Source: Bdellovibrionales bacterium (GTDB taxonomy: Bacteria > Bdellovibrionota > Bdellovibrionia > Bdellovibrionales > UBA1609). Taken from it: DNA of 64,000 bases. A program made the translations under genes and the position numbers. The notes below the pieces were generated by a model. The model was not told the origin of the DNA and made no database searches. It saw nothing but the letters and a program-made list of their open reading frames with translations. Shown in pieces: positions 30,488-37,430 of the stretch. The stretch is taken from NCBI GenBank assembly GCA_027317865.1, contig DAHVQG010000001.1, positions 192,001-256,000 of the forward strand, in the 5' to 3' direction. Every line of letters begins with the position of its first letter. The stretch's first letter is position 1.

Positions 30488-30868
30488 TCACCCCGCTTTG
30501 TTATTAACTGCTGAGCTTAAGATATTTTCAATTTGTGAGCACAATTGAAGCGGATCAAAAGGTTTAGCAATATACCCGACGGTCATAGGGCGAAATTCTT
30601 CAACACGCGCCGTTTGCGGATTGGCACTTAAGAAAATTATGGGGGCTGTCGGTTGGCCCAACTGGCGGATTTCGTTGCATACGTCGGCGCCGCTTTTGTG
30701 CGGCATCATTTCGTCAAGTAAGATCACGTCAAACTGACCGGTCATCGCGTTTGACTTAGCCGCATTGCCGTCCGCGACCCATGTCACCTGGTGATGGCCG
30801 ACATGTTCAAGAGCCAAGCGCGCGATAGTCGCAATGTTCGGATCGTCTTCACATAAAAGAATATTCAT
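30488..30868 (-). CDS. single-domain response regulator
   Basis: LCEDD, LLDEMMP, KPF; ATG 30868 overlaps the upstream stop. Confidence 0.92.
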   Translation of the reverse strand: MNILLCEDDPNIATIARLALEHVGHHQVTWVADGNAAKSNAMTGQFDVILLDEMMPHKSGADVCNEIRQLGQPTAPIIFLSANPQTARVEEFRPMTVGYIAKPFDPLQLCSQIENILSSAVNNKAG

Positions 30869-31566
30869 GCGGCTCCCTTCAGCTGGCGTGTTGCTTGACC
30901 AATCCACACCCGAACTCGCTTGTAAAAGGCATCATTTGTTGTGACGAAGGCGACATTAATCTCGTACCCATTTTCAGTTTTTCGACACGAAACCACCTTT
31001 AATGGCGGTGGATTTTTTATTTCAAGTTTGCGAAAAAAATCCGTCGTCACTTGAACTGTTGTACCTTCGGCAATTTCAACATTGGAGTGCAGAATAAGGC
31101 CGAGCTCATTGAGCTGGATCAGCCTCGCTTCGGTTGCGATTTGGGCGACGGCGTATGTTGATCCGGCGGGTAAATCGTAGTGAAGACGGTCAGTCGGCGG
31201 TTTTTTTCGAAATAGGCCGTCTACTTTTTCAAGAAGCAACATGGGGTCAATTGGTTTAATGATGTAATCGTCCACTCCTGCGCGGATGGCCTTTTCAATA
31301 TCCTTCTTTTCGCGAAGTCCGGTAAGCATTGCAATCGACATTCGTTCAAAACGTTTATTGTTTTTGATCGTGCGAACCAATTCGAATCCAGAAAATTGCG
31401 GCATGTTGGCGTCAGTGATCAAAAGATCGTATCTCGAAGCATTGAGCAGATCCATTGCGCGAATCGCGTCGTTCGCCGTGAACACTTCGTGTTTGCTCAC
31501 ACTCAATACTTTTTCGACGACGCGGAGAACGTCCGGATCGTCATCCACTACTAAAATTCGCGCCAT
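30865..31566 (-). CDS. response regulator with beta-rich (PilZ-like?) C-terminal domain
   Basis: VVDDD, ITDANMP, DYIIKP receiver motifs; C-terminal assignment uncertain. Confidence 0.85.
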   Translation of the reverse strand: MARILVVDDDPDVLRVVEKVLSVSKHEVFTANDAIRAMDLLNASRYDLLITDANMPQFSGFELVRTIKNNKRFERMSIAMLTGLREKKDIEKAIRAGVDDYIIKPIDPMLLLEKVDGLFRKKPPTDRLHYDLPAGSTYAVAQIATEARLIQLNELGLILHSNVEIAEGTTVQVTTDFFRKLEIKNPPPLKVVSCRKTENGYEINVAFVTTNDAFYKRVRVWIGQATRQLKGAA

Positions 31567-31572
31567 ATAAAG

Positions 31573-31797
31573 TTATGTCGGCGAGTTGATGCGAAAAATC
31601 CAGTAGATAAAGCAACTACCGAAACTAGCGGTTGCGATAAAATAAATACCGACAAACGCCCAATGCGGGCCCCCGGCGATGGCCCAGGTGAGAAGTAAAA
31701 TGCCGATGATGTAACGTAGGATTCGCTCCCACAGGCGGACATTTCGTTGCACGATAATCAGTGTAGCGCGCATCGAAGATTTTTGCCATACTCTCAC
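31573..31797 (-). CDS. YgaP/DUF2892-like small membrane protein
   Basis: RNV..WERILR, 2 TM, GSCFIY..F.INS; start uncertain. Confidence 0.7.
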   Translation of the reverse strand: MRVWQKSSMRATLIIVQRNVRLWERILRYIIGILLLTWAIAGGPHWAFVGIYFIATASFGSCFIYWIFRINSPT

Positions 31798-31800
31798 TGC

Positions 31801-32394
31801 ATGAGTCGCAAGTTATTTGCCGGAATTGCAATACCCAAATCGAAAGTTGAGACGCTCGAACAGTCGTTGGCTCGCCTTAAACGAACGGCCCACGAGCGCG
31901 AATTTCAAATGCAGTGGGTACCAAAGGCTAACTGGCACATTACGCTATGGTACTTTGGTCCGTCGACGGTTGAAGAAGAAAAGACTATTCGTGAGCGGTT
32001 ACTAAGTTTAGCGCAAGAACAACGCGCGGCGATCGATCTCGACGTCCGGGGCTTTGGAGCATTCCCTGAACCGACGCATGCCCGTGTTTTTTGGGCTGGT
32101 GTGAGTCGAACACGTGAACTGGTCGAACTTTACGACCGGGGAGTGGCAAAATTTAGTTCGTCAGTGAATGACATGACACCGGCAAACCGCGATGAAGATT
32201 CAGGTTTATTTGCGCCTCATCTCACGTTGGCGCGGTTTCGAAATTTGCAGTCGGCCTCGCCCTTGATTGAACCGTTCGCGCGTAAGCGGTTATTCTCATT
32301 TCGAATAGATGAAATCATACTCTTTGAATCCGTGCTTGAAGGACATTATCCAAAGTACACGCCACTTACCAGGTTTGCTTTTGCACCAAAGTGA
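31801..32394 (+). CDS. thpR: RNA 2',3'-cyclic phosphodiesterase (2H family)
   Basis: Two HxT motifs (HITL, PHLTLAR), GAFP..ARVFWAG. Confidence 0.9.
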   Translation: MSRKLFAGIAIPKSKVETLEQSLARLKRTAHEREFQMQWVPKANWHITLWYFGPSTVEEEKTIRERLLSLAQEQRAAIDLDVRGFGAFPEPTHARVFWAGVSRTRELVELYDRGVAKFSSSVNDMTPANRDEDSGLFAPHLTLARFRNLQSASPLIEPFARKRLFSFRIDEIILFESVLEGHYPKYTPLTRFAFAPK

Positions 32395-32465: not shown

Positions 32466-33206
32466 ATGAGAAGAATCGTAACCTCCTTATTTTTGTGGTT
32501 GGGCGCCGTTTTCTTGCTGAATTCTTTAACTTCAACTGCATTTGCTCGCGGCCAATACGCGGGCCGAAGGGGCATAACGTCGTCCAATAGAATTTGGCTG
32601 GATGGCGGGTTAGACTTCGGAGTTTGGATGAAAAACCCGGGCGTGGTTCATACGCTCGAAAATATCCCGGGTCTTGTGCATCACCATCGAGTGCGACTCA
32701 TCGAGGGGTGGAAAATGGGTATGGAGCTGGCGAAGCTACACCCCAATCTTGAGGCGATGTATGCTAAAAGATTTGGTACTGTCGAAAAAAAACTCGAGGA
32801 CGATACAGCAACGGCCTACGATCATTTATTACCGAAAAATGAAGTTGCCAAAGGGCTTGAGAAAAATCATGTGCAGGTGAATGAAAATTATGTCGGCTAT
32901 TTGCCTCGCACCACTTACCTTTTAAAGGACCCGTACATTTATGACGGCGTTTTGACGTTCACGGTTTCGAGCGTTTGCGTGAAAGGTTCGCAATTTGTGC
33001 CGACTAACCCTTATCTCGCGCCAAACGTTCTCGGCATCCCACCATGCCAGGGCGGCAAAGTTTACTCAGTATATAAAATTGCGCACGTTCATTACGACCC
33101 GTATTGCGTTGATGCTTACGGTTATCGAACTTATTGTACATCACCGGATGAACTAAAAAAGCCAATCTGGATCGATACTATTTATACAGGCGCCGAATCC
33201 GACTGA
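32466..33206 (+). CDS. secreted hypothetical protein
   Basis: Signal peptide ending AFA; 4 Cys in the C-terminal half. Confidence 0.7.
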   Translation: MRRIVTSLFLWLGAVFLLNSLTSTAFARGQYAGRRGITSSNRIWLDGGLDFGVWMKNPGVVHTLENIPGLVHHHRVRLIEGWKMGMELAKLHPNLEAMYAKRFGTVEKKLEDDTATAYDHLLPKNEVAKGLEKNHVQVNENYVGYLPRTTYLLKDPYIYDGVLTFTVSSVCVKGSQFVPTNPYLAPNVLGIPPCQGGKVYSVYKIAHVHYDPYCVDAYGYRTYCTSPDELKKPIWIDTIYTGAESD

Positions 33207-33239
33207 ATTCGACCCACCACAACTGACCGCCAACTTGCG

Positions 33240-33548
33240 CTACTTTACCATCTCTTTAAGTTCGCCGGACTGGTACATCTCCATCATGATATCGCTGCCG
33301 CCTACCAATTCTTTATTTACGTACAGTTGCGGAATGGTCGGCCAGTTACCGAATTCTTTTATCCCCTGACGAATTTCTTCGTCGTCGAGCACGTTAACGC
33401 TTTGAAATTGTGCGCCGAGTTCTTGCAGTATGGCGACCGCTCGAGCTGAAAATCCGCACTGCGGAAAGGCCGGCGTACCTTTCATAAATAATACAATGTG
33501 GTTTGCGGATAAGATCGACTCAATTTTTGATTTTGTGCTGACTTCCAT
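33240..33548 (-). CDS. grxD: monothiol glutaredoxin (Grx4)
   Basis: MKGTP..PQCGFS, WPTIPQLY, GGSDI. Confidence 0.96.
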   Translation of the reverse strand: MEVSTKSKIESILSANHIVLFMKGTPAFPQCGFSARAVAILQELGAQFQSVNVLDDEEIRQGIKEFGNWPTIPQLYVNKELVGGSDIMMEMYQSGELKEMVK

Positions 33549-33571
33549 TTTTAAATTCTCCCATGTAAAGT

Positions 33572-33590
33572 CTTGAGTTTTCGACTCAAG
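33572..33590. repeat. 7-bp hairpin near the IS end
   Basis: Minus strand CTTGAGT-CGAAA-ACTCAAG. Confidence 0.7.
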
Positions 33591-33604
33591 GTAAATTGTT
33601 AAAA

Positions 33605-33760
33605 AATAACAGATGACTATTAACCTCCCATTCGAGGTCTTCGTCTTTCGACTGAAGCCCCACCATTCCGGTTCAATAACAAGCGGCCCAATCTCCTTAA
33701 GCGGTCATAGTGACCAGATTTTAATTGCGGGCTTACCTGCTAAACTTGACCATCTGTGTG
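33605..33760 (-). ncRNA. putative IS110 bridge/seek guide RNA
   Basis: Closing stem ACAGATG/CATCTGT; two internal-loop hairpins whose loops match the target and donor sites; GAAA tetraloop. Confidence 0.78.
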
Positions 33761-33800
33761 AACTTCAATCTTTTTCTGTTCTTCATTCCTTTCAAAAAAA

Positions 33801-34829
33801 CTATGCTGCTTTTAATAGCGAGGGCTTATATACGCTCTCGCTCTTCCAAACAGCATAAACTACAGTCAGAAGTTTACGGCTAAGCGCGATTAACGCTCGC
33901 TTTTTGCCGCGTCTTCGTTCAATTCGATTAAAAAATTCTTGCAGCGGCCGCGCCGACGCTGTCTTCATTCGCACCACAGCATGGGCGCATTGTATGAGTG
34001 CTCGCCGCATCTCTTTGCGGCCGGCCCTGGTTACTGAGCCCATTCGACATTCGTCGCCACTTTGGTAAATCGTTGGCGTCAATGCACCGTAATTTGCAAC
34101 GGCTTTGCTATTTTCAAAACGATCCGCGTCAGCAATGGCACCAAAAAGTATTCGTGACGTCAGCTTGCCAATTCCTGGGATGGTCTCTATCCGCTCAATC
34201 ACCACGTCTTCAATCGTCATGATTTCGTTGGCAATTGATTTTTCGCTCTCAACCAGACATTCAATTGCGTGCATAAAGCCGGCAACAATGGCTTCAGTTG
34301 AAGACGATAATTTCATTTCGCAAAGTTGTACCTGCCAATCGTTGGCTTTAAAAAATGCCAACGGCAATTTTTGACCTTCTTGGCGCAAAAATCCACGAAG
34401 CGAGTTCATAAGCGATACACGCTTTCGAAGTAACGTCTCTCGCGCATTTGTAAGTTCGCGTAAAGTTCTCGTTTTACCTTCAGCCATGTGAACTTTGCGC
34501 GGCAACATATCGGCACGCGCGAGCTCTGCCAGTTTCTTGGCGTCAACTTGATCCGTCTTTTTACCACCGCTTTCGGCAATCCATTTCACTTCGTTAGGGT
34601 GAACGATATGAATGTCTTCACCAAGCTTTTTGAAATAATCGGCAATCCACTTCATTTGATTCCCAGCCTCGAATACAAAAAGCTTCGATTCGATGCCAAA
34701 AATGGCGATTAGGTCGCGAATGCCCTTCTTCGTCGGACTAACTGAACCTTTAAATAAAACTTTTTTCTTGTCGTTAAGCGCGTGAACGACAAAATCCTTG
34801 CCTGAGATATCCATTCCTACGTAAATCAT
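33801..34829 (-). CDS. IS110-family DEDD recombinase/transposase
   Basis: YVGMD, FEAG, KTDQVDA (DEDD RuvC-like); TIPGIG, ALTP..YQSG (Tnp Ser), ALSRKL; ATG 34829. Confidence 0.96.
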   Translation of the reverse strand: MIYVGMDISGKDFVVHALNDKKKVLFKGSVSPTKKGIRDLIAIFGIESKLFVFEAGNQMKWIADYFKKLGEDIHIVHPNEVKWIAESGGKKTDQVDAKKLAELARADMLPRKVHMAEGKTRTLRELTNARETLLRKRVSLMNSLRGFLRQEGQKLPLAFFKANDWQVQLCEMKLSSSTEAIVAGFMHAIECLVESEKSIANEIMTIEDVVIERIETIPGIGKLTSRILFGAIADADRFENSKAVANYGALTPTIYQSGDECRMGSVTRAGRKEMRRALIQCAHAVVRMKTASARPLQEFFNRIERRRGKKRALIALSRKLLTVVYAVWKSESVYKPSLLKAA

Positions 34830-35032
34830 TTTTGACCCCTTTGGTTTGTTGTTGGTAAACAACCAAGAGTCGAAAACGCGACTTAACGTCAACTTTAGAC
34901 TCACGGGGTCTTTTCTTTTTTCAGAGCTGGCCGATCGAAAATCGGCAGCAAAAAGACTTTGCGTCACTTTGCACCACCTTTCTTCGTCTCATAGCTCATG
35001 GAATCTCCTTTAGAATCGTTAATTCGATTTAT

Positions 35033-35263
35033 TTATTTTTTCAACAGGGTTTTAATTTGTAGCGCATGAACTTCGCCGGATTTGAATTCTGAAGAAAATA
35101 AATCCATTATCATCTTGTGCTGTTCGATTCGCGTTTTGTTTAGAAATGAACGCGATGAAACACGCACGTCAAAATGATCATTCGTCCCGGTTGTGTCGAT
35201 CACGGCCACGTCGCAATCGGCCAATGCGGTTTTGATTCGTTTTTCAATTTGTTCAGCCGTCAT
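35033..35263 (-). CDS. BolA/IbaG-family protein
   Basis: DHFDV.VSS..F..KTRIEQHKMI..VHALQIKT; usual partner of grxD. Confidence 0.93.
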   Translation of the reverse strand: MTAEQIEKRIKTALADCDVAVIDTTGTNDHFDVRVSSRSFLNKTRIEQHKMIMDLFSSEFKSGEVHALQIKTLLKK

Positions 35264-35331
35264 GACTGACCCATATAGCATGCGGGTGAGGTCTATACAG
35301 TTTTGACAAATTGTGTTATGTTGATAAATCC

Positions 35332-35664
35332 ATGCACGAACCGTTAACTGATCCCCAAATTTTGTACTTTTCACCCGCTGACGAAACGCACGTCAGGCGA
35401 GAAAAGGCGCGCGCGCGTGAACTGCGGCAGTCGCAGTGGTGGCGTAACCAAATCGGCCGGGGAGTTTGCCACTACTGTGGAAATAAGTTCGAAAAGGCGC
35501 AATTGACGATGGATCACGTCGTGCCGATTGTTCGCGGCGGCCGTTCGACAAAAGCAAATGTCGTGGTGGCTTGCAAAGAATGTAATTCGCATAAAAAATA
35601 TTGGACTCCAGTGGAACTGGAGCTCATGTCGCGGAACTCCGTCTTGGAGACGGAGAAAAATTAA
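35332..35664 (+). CDS. stand-alone HNH endonuclease
   Basis: CHYC..LTMDHVVP..RGG..N.V.ACKECN..K. Confidence 0.92.
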   Translation: MHEPLTDPQILYFSPADETHVRREKARARELRQSQWWRNQIGRGVCHYCGNKFEKAQLTMDHVVPIVRGGRSTKANVVVACKECNSHKKYWTPVELELMSRNSVLETEKN

Positions 35665-35720: not shown

Positions 35721-37430
35721 ATGACAACAAAGCTAACTCAACATAGTACGGCGGAGTATTTCGCAAAAAATCTTCAACAGGTGGGTTTTTCGTCACCGGT
35801 CAAGGCGGTTTTAACGACGCTGAAAGAAGCCGTCGATAATTCGCTTGATGCTTGCGAAGACGCGGCTATCTTGCCCGAGCTTGAAGTAATTATTCGCAAA
35901 ATCGGTCAAGGCTCGGCTCGGAATACCGAGCTTGTTGAAGTCATTGTTGATGATAACGGTCCCGGCATTGATGCGGACGATCTGCCTAGCGTATTCGGCG
36001 AATATTTGTCGTCTTCAAAATTCGGCCGAGGGCGTTGTTCGCGCGGTCAGCAAGGTATTGGGATTTCAGCCGCTACAACCTGGGCCCAGCTCACTAATGC
36101 CGCAGGCGTTCGCGTGATCAGCAAAACAAAAAACATGCGAAAGGCGATAAAAGAGCAAATCGACGTCGATATTAAAGCCAACAAAGGGCTTGTGAAAAAT
36201 AAAGAGACCATTGATTGGGATCGTCCGCATGGGACACGTGTAGAGTTTCGAATCGATGGTCGCGTACAACTTAACGGCGATGGCGGGCTTTTGACTTATC
36301 TCGAAGGCACAACCCTTGTGAACCCGCATATGACGTTAAAATATAAACTTCTTGATAATGATCCTGTTGAAGTGATTCGTGTGAGTAATGCGGTGCCTGA
36401 AGTTCCGCCGCCCACGCTCCCGCATCCGCACACGATGAAACTCGGTGAGTTTATGACTCACGCCCACCTTTACGGTAAAGTGACGCTCGATAATTTTTTA
36501 CGCAAGGGCTTTTCGCGAGTTGCCGATGAAGCGATCAAGGGTTTCGTCAAAAACGGTTTGCCGAAATCATTTTTAAGTAAACCTGTAACGGGTTTGTCAG
36601 AAGCCGATTATAAAACCGCGTTTCAGGCTATTCAGGCAAGCGAGTTGCAGAATCCGTCGACTCGATCGGTAATGATTGTCGGTGAAGAAGCGCTGTCTAA
36701 GAGTATTCAACGTTTGGGCGAAATTGATTTCTTTTCAGTGGTGACCCGCAAACCGCGAATTTGTGACTACAAGCCCGTCGCAGTCGAAGTGGCGATTGCG
36801 CGATTTGTAAAGAAAGTAAATTTGGGGGACGAAACCGATCCTATTCAGCTTTTGCGATTTGCCAATCGTGTGCCTTTGCAGTTCGACAAAGCCGCCTGCG
36901 CCATAACCCAAGCAGTTGAATCGGTGAATTGGCGCGCTTACGGTCTTCAACAGTCAAAGAGTAATTTGCCTTTGGGGCCATACGTTTTTGCGATCAGCGT
37001 TGTCTCACCCTTTATAAAATTCAAAAACGCTTCAAAAGAAACCATCGACGCAAGCGATGAGTTGGTTGAAGAAATTCGCCGCGCGCTCATGCAGGCGGGG
37101 CAAAAATTATCGCGTCACATTAAACGCGAGGTGCGCGCCGCCGACCTGGAACGCAAGCTTCAGCACATTGAAAAATTCGGTCCCATTTTGGTGGAGGCAC
37201 TCGGTAAAATCGTGAACGCACCCAAAGCGAGAATCAAGCGGGCCGAAGAGGGCCTTGCGAAGCTCTTGGGACGCGACGGACGTGAAGCCGAAAAAGAATT
37301 GGCCGAAGCCGAAACCCAATTAGAAAAAGTGAAAGCCAAGCAAGAAGCAGTCGTCAGAGAAGGGGCCAGCGGATCTACTGACGAGACCAAAGAACCACTT
37401 AAAGCGAATCAATCCGAAACGAAAGAGTGA
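35721..37430 (+). CDS. top6B: DNA topoisomerase VI subunit B
   Basis: GHKL motifs EAVDNSLDA, DDNGPG, SRGQQGIG; RFANRVPL transducer. Confidence 0.95.
   Translation: MTTKLTQHSTAEYFAKNLQQVGFSSPVKAVLTTLKEAVDNSLDACEDAAILPELEVIIRKIGQGSARNTELVEVIVDDNGPGIDADDLPSVFGEYLSSSKFGRGRCSRGQQGIGISAATTWAQLTNAAGVRVISKTKNMRKAIKEQIDVDIKANKGLVKNKETIDWDRPHGTRVEFRIDGRVQLNGDGGLLTYLEGTTLVNPHMTLKYKLLDNDPVEVIRVSNAVPEVPPPTLPHPHTMKLGEFMTHAHLYGKVTLDNFLRKGFSRVADEAIKGFVKNGLPKSFLSKPVTGLSEADYKTAFQAIQASELQNPSTRSVMIVGEEALSKSIQRLGEIDFFSVVTRKPRICDYKPVAVEVAIARFVKKVNLGDETDPIQLLRFANRVPLQFDKAACAITQAVESVNWRAYGLQQSKSNLPLGPYVFAISVVSPFIKFKNASKETIDASDELVEEIRRALMQAGQKLSRHIKREVRAADLERKLQHIEKFGPILVEALGKIVNAPKARIKRAEEGLAKLLGRDGREAEKELAEAETQLEKVKAKQEAVVREGASGSTDETKEPLKANQSETKE

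What the first reader, a model, noticed from the sequence alone, without database searches (positions are those of the whole stretch)
33615..33680. Second loop of the same RNA matches the donor (circle) junction
Seen: the second arm reads TATTGAACC-[GGAATGGT]-GGGG CTTC A GTC GAAA GAC GAAG A CCTC-[GAATGGGA]-GGTTAATA, with a GNRA tetraloop on the minus strand. Joining the element ends gives the donor (+ strand) ATGGAAT-CT-CCCAT. ATGGGAG (33625-33631) is the exact 7-nt reverse complement of core plus right donor. GGAAT (33665-33669) equals the 5 nt left of the core. Inference: this is the donor-binding loop. Its left guide looks shorter than its target-loop counterpart, and in both loops the 5' guide follows the strand opposite the transposase, which may be a subfamily-specific architecture.
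Basis: partly seen in the sequence, partly recalled or inferred. Interest (0 to 1): 0.8.

Follow-up and report, generated by a model that had tools for sequence, protein, structure and literature searches.

The report
Donor loop of IS1111-type bridge RNA
This is the second loop of the guide RNA of a small jumping gene of the IS110/IS1111 family; it carries a 7-base copy of the element's own right end, so it is most likely the loop that recognises the element itself, a kind of RNA described in 2024.

Summary
An IS110-family element (1447 bp, minus strand, about 33560-35006) sits between bolA and grxD. Contigs from three runs of one study skip exactly 1447 bp here, which fixes its ends. A two-armed RNA lies 3' of the transposase gene. 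A covariance model finds it in 80 of 86 related sources.

In arm 2 (33612-33682, minus) the 3' side of the internal loop reads AUGGGAG, which is the right end plus the core dinucleotide. This holds in 73 of 75 relatives. The one variable base (G/A) changes together with the right end in three separate lineages and never alone.

The 5' side (GGAAU) complements the first five bases of the left end in the window. In relatives it is not kept by compensating changes: 32 of 69 carry an uncompensated mismatch.

So this is the donor-binding loop, with one strong guide and one weak one. Verdict: a new member of a known kind.

Seen in passing: the whole lineage inserts at Shine-Dalgarno sites just upstream of start codons (63 of 68 distinct right flanks).

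The parts
33560..35006 (-). Whole insertion sequence, 1447 bp counted with one copy of the core dinucleotide. The boundary is ambiguous within the 5 shared letters TCTCC (+) = GGAGA (-).
   Evidence: Contigs in X1, X2 and X3 skip 33556->35004 = 1447 bases with 5 shared letters. A relative has the empty site. Ends read.
33801..34829 (-). Transposase/recombinase gene (342 aa, start MIYVGMD)
   Evidence: Pfam DEDD_Tnp_IS110 2.3e-20 and Transposase_20 2.5e-21. NCBIfam NF033542 'IS110 family RNA-guided transposase', 223 bits against a cut-off of 140. Start set by alignment with relatives.
33602..33765 (-). Bridge/seek RNA: closing stem plus two arms
   Evidence: Only match of covariance model R1 in the window, 112.7 bits, E 1.2e-27. 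The structure is kept in 96.7% of cells, and 0 of 500 shuffles reach the covariation score.
33751..33757 (-). 5' strand of closing stem P1 (ACAGAUG)
   Evidence: Pairs with 33609-33615. The core GAUGG/CCAUC changes to GAAGG/CCUUC and other forms in relatives. Support is moderate: mean longest helix 7.0 against 5.3 in shuffles.
33609..33615 (-). 3' strand of closing stem P1 (CAUCUGU)
   Evidence: read.
33683..33741 (-). Arm 1, the target-binding loop. The 5' side UUAAAAUCU (33716-33724) complements the right flank plus core in 8 of 9 positions. The 3' side UUAAGGAG (33693-33700) equals the left flank plus core in 7 of 8.
   Evidence: Read against the flanks. Helices covary. Own flanks match better than foreign ones, but only by 5.8 against 5.2 of 11 (0 of 2000 permutations).
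33612..33682 (-). Arm 2, the finding: outer stem, 7+7 nt internal loop, inner hairpin with GAAA
   Evidence: Folds. Consensus fold. Inner stem has 2 of 5 pairs with changes on both sides; outer ACC/GGU is invariant.
33625..33631 (-). 3' donor guide AUGGGAG, identical to the right end plus core on the transposase-sense strand, so able to pair with + strand CTCCCAT
   Evidence: At least 7 contiguous bases identical in 73 of 75 relatives. The G at 33629 covaries with right-end base 33562.
33665..33669 (-). 5' donor guide GGAAU, complementary to the first 5 nt of the left end (ATTCC on the transposase-sense strand); weak
   Evidence: In relatives: 6 of 69 with five Watson-Crick pairs, 31 with four plus G.T, 32 with an uncompensated mismatch.
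33558..33564 (+). Core CT plus right-end terminus CCCAT, the DNA partner of the 3' donor guide
35000..35006 (+). Left-end terminus GGAAT plus core CT, the DNA partner of the 5' donor guide
33571..33589 (-). Subterminal hairpin CUUGAGU-CGAAA-ACUCAAG in the right end; role unknown
   Evidence: Fold (-10.3 kcal/mol for 33560-33612, z -2.45). Relatives have a hairpin at the same place.
33240..33548 (-). Glutaredoxin gene whose Shine-Dalgarno site was the target. It now uses GGGAG from the right end, 9 nt before its ATG.
   Evidence: Pfam Glutaredoxin 7e-22.
35033..35374 (-). bolA-like gene upstream, same orientation
   Evidence: Pfam BolA 2.1e-13.

Best explanation
Arm 2 of the RNA encoded 3' of the transposase gene is the donor-binding loop of an IS1111-type bridge (seek) RNA.

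Proposed mechanism. The RNA is probably cut out of the transposase transcript and bound by the DEDD/Tnp recombinase. The 3' side of the internal loop (AUGGGAG, whose last G already lies in the ACC/GGU stem) pairs with the strand complementary to the right end plus core, which is + strand CTCCCAT at 33558-33564. The 5' side (GGAAU) can pair with the first five bases of the left end on the transposase-sense strand. Together they would hold the joined ends (circle junction ...CATGGAAT-CT-CCCATG... on the + strand). Arm 1 holds the target (...AAGGAG | N5-9 ATG), and strands are exchanged at the shared core (CT on +, AG on -).

Shown here: the element and its ends, the conserved two-armed RNA, the identity of the 3' side with the right end, and their co-change.

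Inferred: RNA expression and processing, protein binding, circle formation, and any role for the 5' side.
For: Family. The gene is an IS110-family RNA-guided transposase. D8, E55, D94/D97 and S258 are invariant in the 4-sequence alignment.

Ends. They are fixed by contigs that skip exactly 1447 bp and by an empty site in a relative.

RNA. It is found in 80 of 86 related sources and once in the window. Helices are kept in 96.7% of cells, with 171 cells changed on both sides against 48 in shuffles. That alignment was fitted to the model.

3' side against the right end. 73 of 75 loci have at least 7 contiguous identical bases ending in the core. Eight loci have A in both RNA and right end, 65 have G in both, and none is mixed at that position. 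The A state arose 3 times on the transposase tree in both characters, and all 3 independent pairs go the same way. Among 48 end and flank positions, the best partner of that RNA column is RE-3, with mutual information 0.42 equal to its entropy 0.42.

5' side. RNA position 1 is A only where left-end base 5 is T.

Agreement with the literature. The loop order (first target, second donor) matches IS621 (PMC11208160, passages read). The strand order of the guides matches IS1111 seekRNAs (PMC11187229, sections 9 and 12).
Against: Little variation. The donor ends are almost invariant, so only one base pair covaries. Three independent pairs give a sign-test p of 0.25.

The 5' guide is poorly supported. 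In 27 of 69 loci left-end base 3 is A opposite an unchanged RNA A. That change arose 3 times with no compensation. Four loci have GGAAG and one has GGACU, also uncompensated. The 5' side does not pair with the core (GG where CU is needed), whereas in IS621 all four guides include the core (PMC11208160).

Exceptions on the 3' side. L003's right end lacks one G (4 contiguous matches). L069's RNA reads AUGAGAG (3 contiguous matches).

Method caveat. The right end was located with a pattern that fixes AT..GGAG. An independent location by the subterminal inverted repeat gave an end followed by GGGAG or AGGAG in 48 loci and failed or misplaced the end in the rest.

Precedent against need. For ISEc11 (IS1111 group) the short 82-nt seekRNA, which holds the target matches, sufficed for transposition, and the role of the longer RNA was left open (PMC11187229, sections 10 and 14). 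A donor loop may therefore not be required in this group.

No direct evidence. No RNA run and no circle junction were available. The 251-nt single-sequence fold does not draw arm 2.
Confidence: 0.8

Rival explanations
1. Arm 2 is only a scaffold or protein-binding module. The ends are recognised by the recombinase through the subterminal inverted repeats. The likeness of the loop to the right end is a leftover of common origin, for example duplication of the target arm or of the end, and is not a working RNA-DNA pairing.
For: The short seekRNA of ISEc11, without the longer part, supports transposition (PMC11187229, sections 10 and 14). Most relatives have an 11-bp subterminal inverted repeat that a protein could read. 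The loop letters are nearly invariant, as expected for a protein contact. The 5' side shows uncompensated mismatches.
Against: The same G-to-A change appears in the loop and in the right end in three separate lineages and never in one alone. A leftover would drift independently. The window's own clade has only a 4-5 bp inverted repeat (CCATG/CATGG), so there is little for a protein to read.
Confidence: 0.12
2. Arm 2 is a second target-type loop that reads Shine-Dalgarno-like sequence (GGGAGG) in the host, or the right junction only during excision, rather than the joined ends.
For: Donor and target look alike: right end ATGGGAG | left end ATTCTATG, against target AAGGAG | GTTCTATG in several relatives. 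In IS621 excision both loops read the two junctions (PMC13626964, passages read).
Against: The three bases before GGAG differ consistently between loop 1 (UAAGGAG) and loop 2 (AUGGGAG or AUAGGAG), and each tracks its own partner. Reading the right junction in excision is part of the bridge-RNA model, not a rival to it.
Confidence: 0.05
3. Chance match of short words in an AT-rich non-coding tail.
For: CTCCCAT occurs 6 times in the window against 4.2 expected. A 5-mer match is weak evidence.
Against: The RNA and the match are conserved in 73 of 75 relatives that share only 51-74% transposase identity.
Confidence: 0.02

Closest known systems
IS621 bridge RNA (IS110 group; Durrant et al. 2024, PMC11208160; Hiraizumi et al. 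2024, seen in the search listing only)
   Same: A DEDD/Tnp recombinase with one RNA carrying two internal loops, first for the target and second for the donor. Each loop has one guide for each DNA strand around a core dinucleotide (CT on one strand). There is no target duplication.
   Different: Here the RNA lies 3' of the gene, in the right end rather than the left end. Measured on the transposase-sense strand, the 5' side pairs with the top strand and the 3' side with the bottom strand, the reverse of IS621. The two arms are closed by a common stem. The 5' donor guide has 5 nt and does not cover the core. Transposase identity to anything in the plasmid collection is below 60%, about 31% at best.
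seekRNAs of IS1111-group elements ISEc11, ISPa11, ISKpn4 and ISPst6 (Siddiquee et al. 2024, PMC11187229)
   Same: The non-coding region lies downstream of the transposase gene. The top-strand match lies 5' of the bottom-strand match. The two matches overlap at the insertion point. The RNA is presumed to be co-transcribed with the transposase gene.
   Different: That paper defines only target matches and shows that the short target part is sufficient. A donor loop is not described there. Here a second loop matches the element's own ends with covariation. The targets differ: repeats, attC and transposon ends there, Shine-Dalgarno sites here.
Predicted IS1111-group bridge RNAs (ISCARN28, ISAzs32, ISPa11; Durrant et al. 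2024, text on Fig. 6d and legend of Extended Data Fig. 10c; figures not seen)
   Same: Bridge RNA predicted in the right end, with loops complementary to donor and target.
   Different: The text says that in many IS1111 orthologues the donor-binding bases sit in a multi-loop. Here they sit in a simple internal loop of a separate arm.

Membership tests
IS110 family (RNA-guided DEDD transposase elements) | Transposase with an N-terminal DEDD (RuvC-like) domain and a C-terminal Tnp domain | tested here: met
   PF01548 2.3e-20 and PF02371 2.5e-21. NF033542, 223 bits against a cut-off of 140. D8, E55, D94/D97 and S258 are invariant in A1. Their mapping to catalytic residues is recalled, not tested.
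IS110 family (RNA-guided DEDD transposase elements) | Site-specific insertion without terminal inverted repeats and without a target-site duplication beyond the shared core | tested here: met
   The empty-site contigs skip 1447 bp with only 5 shared letters. Ends read.
IS1111 group | Long non-coding right end holding the RNA, downstream of the transposase gene | tested here: met
   Right end 241 nt (33560-33800) with the RNA at 33602-33765. Left end 175 nt.
IS1111 group | Subterminal inverted repeats of 7-17 bp with short terminal extensions (PMC11208160) | tested here: inconclusive
   The window's element and its 6 nearest relatives share only CCATG/CATGG (4-5 bp). Most other relatives have about 11 bp (for example ATGAATAGGCC / GGCCTATTCAT), set 5 nt in from the left end and 3 nt in from the right end.
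IS1111 group | Placement of the transposase with named IS1111 members on a tree | not tested
   No named reference sequences were available from a tool. The assignment rests on layout.
Bridge / seek RNA | Conserved structured RNA next to the transposase gene with two internal loops | tested here: met
Bridge / seek RNA | Target loop with guides to both strands of the insertion site, overlapping at the core | tested here: met
   Window: 8 of 9 and 7 of 8 matches. Across relatives the match to the own flank is only slightly better than to foreign flanks.
Bridge / seek RNA | Donor loop with guides to both ends of the element, each including the core | tested here: inconclusive
   3' guide: met, with covariation. 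5' guide: 5 nt, no core pairing, and an uncompensated mismatch in 32 of 69 loci.
Bridge / seek RNA | RNA is expressed, bound by the recombinase and required for recombination; circular intermediate with joined ends | not testable with these tools
   No RNA run is listed. Only contigs could be laid, and no back-joining contig was seen.
Rfam families | Match to a curated covariance model | tested here: not met
   No match at E up to 1 in 33000-35500.

The most novel reading that the evidence does not exclude
The element may belong to an undescribed IS1111-like lineage whose bridge RNA homes to translation start regions. The crossover core lies inside the Shine-Dalgarno GGAG. The element enters co-oriented with the gene, 5-9 nt upstream of its ATG. 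Its right end (..AUGGGAG) gives the gene a replacement Shine-Dalgarno site, and the old one now precedes an ATG in the left end. The donor loop and both ends would then be nearly frozen, because the same bases must serve as guide partner and as ribosome-binding site. That would explain why only one base pair covaries and why the 5' donor guide tolerates mismatches. The dinucleotides after the core in both 3' guides (AU in loop 1 = first bases of the left end; GU in loop 2 = first bases of most right flanks) could be handshake guides like those of IS621.
Probability: 0.5. Interest if true: 0.6.

Novelty: new member of a known kind. Interest (0 to 1): 0.35.

Why it matters
Bridge and seek RNAs are being developed as programmable recombination tools. 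Donor recognition has been worked out for the IS110 group (IS621). For the IS1111 group it is predicted but not shown, and one study found the target part of the RNA sufficient. This locus and its 79 relatives give a clean natural case in which a separate, simple internal loop of an IS1111-type RNA tracks the element's own right end. They also supply a ready-made natural pair of variants (G/G and A/A) for a compensatory test. The lineage's habit of inserting at ribosome-binding sites while replacing them is a separate point. If confirmed, it bears on how such elements limit harm to the host, and it offers a natural scaffold aimed at gene starts.

Tried and rejected
- Rfam: no family matches 33000-35500 at E up to 1.
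- Own genome: one full copy only, plus a 71-base piece at 78% identity on contig 42, which I did not follow.
- Phylum search with model R1: 1 of 151 genomes searched, the window's own.
- Viral contigs: 81 pattern matches, none a relative.
- Plain mutual information between RNA columns and end or flank positions: dominated by clade signal. The left-end +3 and +11 positions correlate with many unrelated columns. I used it only for the single column 153.
- Sequencing runs: no RNA holder is listed. All four runs laid were contigs, and no contig joins 35004 back to 33560, so the circle was neither seen nor excluded.
- Promoter scan of the integrated element: 0 sigma-70-like sites against 2.0 in shuffles.
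- Alternative registers for the 5' side of loop 2 (AUGG with CCAU of the left or right end; identity instead of complementarity): none holds in relatives (by eye).
- The idea that CAU at the start of the 5' side of loop 1 pairs with the start codon: rejected. The spacing does not fit the observed ATG offsets of 5-9.
- Earlier notes of this scan: nothing found.
- Rows dropped: L019 (wrong reading frame picked, long branch) and L003 (right end one base short) from the tree test. L083 (left flank cut at the contig start).

Full report
**What is there.**
The finding lies in the 3' non-coding part of an insertion sequence on the minus strand. The transposase gene (34829-33801) has the two Pfam domains of the IS110 family. 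It also passes NCBIfam's model 'IS110 family RNA-guided transposase' (223 bits, cut-off 140). The element sits between a bolA-like gene and a glutaredoxin gene, all three in one orientation.

The ends are no longer a guess. When contigs of four public runs were laid on 33200-35300, one contig in each of X1, X2 and X3 (one study) joined 33556 to 35004. That skips 1447 bases, with five letters (TCTCC) common to both sides. In a same-genus relative, bolA is followed directly by ...AAGGAG ATCTAAAAA ATG of the glutaredoxin gene.

The genome holds one full copy.

**The observation.**
Every letter and coordinate in the finding checks out:
- CTCCCAT = 33625-33631.
- ATTCC = 33665-33669.
- Internal loop GGAAUGGU / GAAUGGGA.
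- Inner hairpin with a GAAA loop.

Arm 2 folds as drawn when taken alone or with arm 1. It does not in a 251-nt single-sequence fold.

**The RNA in relatives.**
Searches with the transposase gave 5 loci in genome contigs and 80 in metagenome contigs, the best 80 of 140. Identity to the window's protein is 51-74%.

I built a covariance model from 27 RNA regions. It found the RNA downstream of the gene in 80 of 86 sources. The six without a match are loci cut before the region. It matched once in the window, at 33602-33765 on the minus strand.

The structure has a closing stem (moderate support) and two arms:
- Arm 1 has an internal loop.
- Arm 2 has an invariant ACC/GGU stem, a 7+7 nt internal loop and an inner hairpin of variable length.

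The helices are kept in 96.7% of cells. 171 cells are changed on both sides, against 48 in shuffles. That alignment was fitted to the model. RNAalifold on the MAFFT alignment gave the same helices.

**The 3' side of loop 2.**
In 75 loci I could read both the loop and the right end. I located the right end with a pattern that left the variable base free. In 73 of them the RNA is identical to the right end plus core over at least 7 contiguous bases. A search that used the subterminal inverted repeat instead found an end followed by GGGAG or AGGAG in 48 loci.

The loop has one variable base (AU[G/A]GGAG):
- 8 loci have A in both RNA and right end.
- 65 have G in both.
- None is mixed at that position.

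On a transposase tree the A state arose three times: in L008, in the L035/L024/L039/L031 clade, and in L004/L057. The right end changed on the same three branches. Three pairs cannot give a significant sign test (p 0.25). Even so, of 48 end and flank positions the best partner of that RNA column is exactly this right-end base, with mutual information equal to the column's entropy.

There are two exceptions. L003's right end is one G short. L069's RNA has AUGAGAG.

**The 5' side of loop 2.**
GGAAU complements ATTCC in the window and its 5 nearest relatives with a readable left end. Elsewhere the picture is weaker:

| Left end | RNA 5' side | Loci (of 69) | Pairing |
|---|---|---|---|
| ATTCC | GGAAU | 6 | five Watson-Crick pairs |
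| ATTCT | GGAAU | 31 | four pairs plus G.T |
| ATACT | GGAAU or AGAAU | 27 | central A.A mismatch |
| ATTCT | GGAAG or GGACU | 5 | one other mismatch |

The T-to-A change in the left end arose three times and was never compensated. The only supporting pattern is that RNA position 1 is A only where left-end base 5 is T. The 5' side also lacks the two bases that would pair with the core. I therefore regard it as a possible short guide, not a demonstrated one.

**How it most likely works.**
By analogy with IS621 (PMC11208160, passages read) and with IS1111 seekRNAs (PMC11187229, abstract and sections 9, 10, 12, 13 and 14 read):
- The RNA is made with the transposase transcript and bound by the recombinase.
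- Arm 1 holds the target. In the window, UUAAAAUCU matches right flank plus core in 8 of 9 positions, and UUAAGGAG matches left flank plus core in 7 of 8.
- Arm 2 holds the joined ends.
- Strands are exchanged at the core.

Read on the + strand, with core CT, the layout is that of IS621: 5' sides identical to the left halves, 3' sides complementary to core plus right halves. Read on the transposase-sense strand the order is reversed. That reversal is what Siddiquee et al. report for the IS1111 type.

What those papers leave open is the donor loop in this group. Durrant et al. predict it, often in a multi-loop. Siddiquee et al. found the short target part sufficient for ISEc11. That result is also the main reason for keeping the scaffold-only rival alive.

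**Comparison and novelty.**
The element meets the tested features of the IS110 family and the IS1111 layout. Its own clade, however, has only a 4-5 bp subterminal repeat, while most relatives have about 11 bp. No Rfam model matches.

Large surveys of bridge RNAs with donor and target covariation exist (PMC11208160; bioRxiv 10.64898/2026.10.21.760802, passages read). I file it as a new member of a known kind.

**Seen on the way.**
All relatives sit at the same kind of site.
- 62 of 65 distinct left flanks end in GGAG.
- 63 of 68 distinct right flanks have an ATG 5-9 nt after the core.
- 40 of the 46 that could be tested are open for at least 40 codons.

Loose ends of contigs in the four runs show further junctions of this element, again AAGGAG | element | N5 ATG. 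In X1 the element's contig has about twice the depth of its flanks. Depths of contigs are rough.

Three literature searches returned no paper whose listed title or abstract concerns such targeting; of their hits I opened only two (passages). Figures and supplements were not visible.

The match of loop 1 to its own flank is only slightly better than to foreign flanks: 5.8 against 5.2 of 11. The specificity therefore seems to lie mostly in the generic Shine-Dalgarno part.

Noticed in passing
window 33549-33564 and 35000-35014; relatives L003-L087: The whole lineage inserts at Shine-Dalgarno sites, co-oriented with the downstream gene. 62 of 65 distinct left flanks end in GGAG. 63 of 68 distinct right flanks have an ATG 5-9 nt after the core. 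40 of 46 testable flanks are open for at least 40 codons. The right end (..GGGAG) replaces the Shine-Dalgarno site of the downstream gene, here grxD. Three paper searches returned no listing about such targeting; only two of their hits were opened.
   Followed up: partly
window 33556-35012: The site is polymorphic in the holder metagenomes: empty-site contigs occur in X1, X2 and X3. Loose ends at 33549-33558 and 35010-35012 show the same element next to other sequences, each again ..AAGGAG | element | N5 ATG. The element's contig in X1 has depth 39.9, against 16.5-19 for the flanks.
   Followed up: partly
window 33564-33569 (-) and 34988-34993 (-): By reading, the joined ends would place TTTACA (right end) 17 nt upstream of TATGAG (left end), a junction-promoter-like arrangement. 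Relatives of the window's clade have TATGAA, TATAAC or TATAGC. None has T at position 6, and the integrated element has no sigma-70-like site. Not scored by any tool.
   Followed up: no
window 34962-35004 (-): The left end starts ATTCC-ATG, so the old Shine-Dalgarno site (AAGGAG) now precedes an ATG opening an 11-codon frame (MSYETKKGGAK). In relatives the left end ATTCTATG resembles typical right flanks (GTTCTATG), so the donor mimics the target.
   Followed up: no
window 33691-33692 and 33623-33624 (-): The two bases after the core in the 3' guides look like handshake guides. AU in loop 1 equals the first two bases of the left end, which are invariant AT. GU in loop 2 equals the first bases of many right flanks (G.., often GT). 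GU lies in the ACC/GGU stem of the free RNA. The comparison with IS621 handshake guides rests on passages of PMC13626964 and is inference only.
   Followed up: no
G000 contig 42, 5315-5386 (L002): A 71-base stretch 78% identical to positions 1240-1310 of the query, which fall inside the transposase gene. It may be a remnant of a related element.
   Followed up: no
window 35311-35661 (+) and 35721-37427 (+): Neighbouring genes: a small HNH endonuclease (PF01844, 1.8e-14) and a topoisomerase VI B-like protein (Topo-VIb_trans, 4.4e-45, plus HATPase_c). Also a LigT-like 2'-5' RNA ligase (31747-32391) and a response regulator (30868-31566). The 246-aa ORF at 32466-33203 has no Pfam match.
   Followed up: partly
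phylum of G000: Model R1 finds the RNA in only 1 of 151 genomes sampled from the phylum, the window's own. Yet relatives occur in contigs titled Bdellovibrionales, Nitrospira and Woesearchaeota. This suggests horizontal spread.
   Followed up: no
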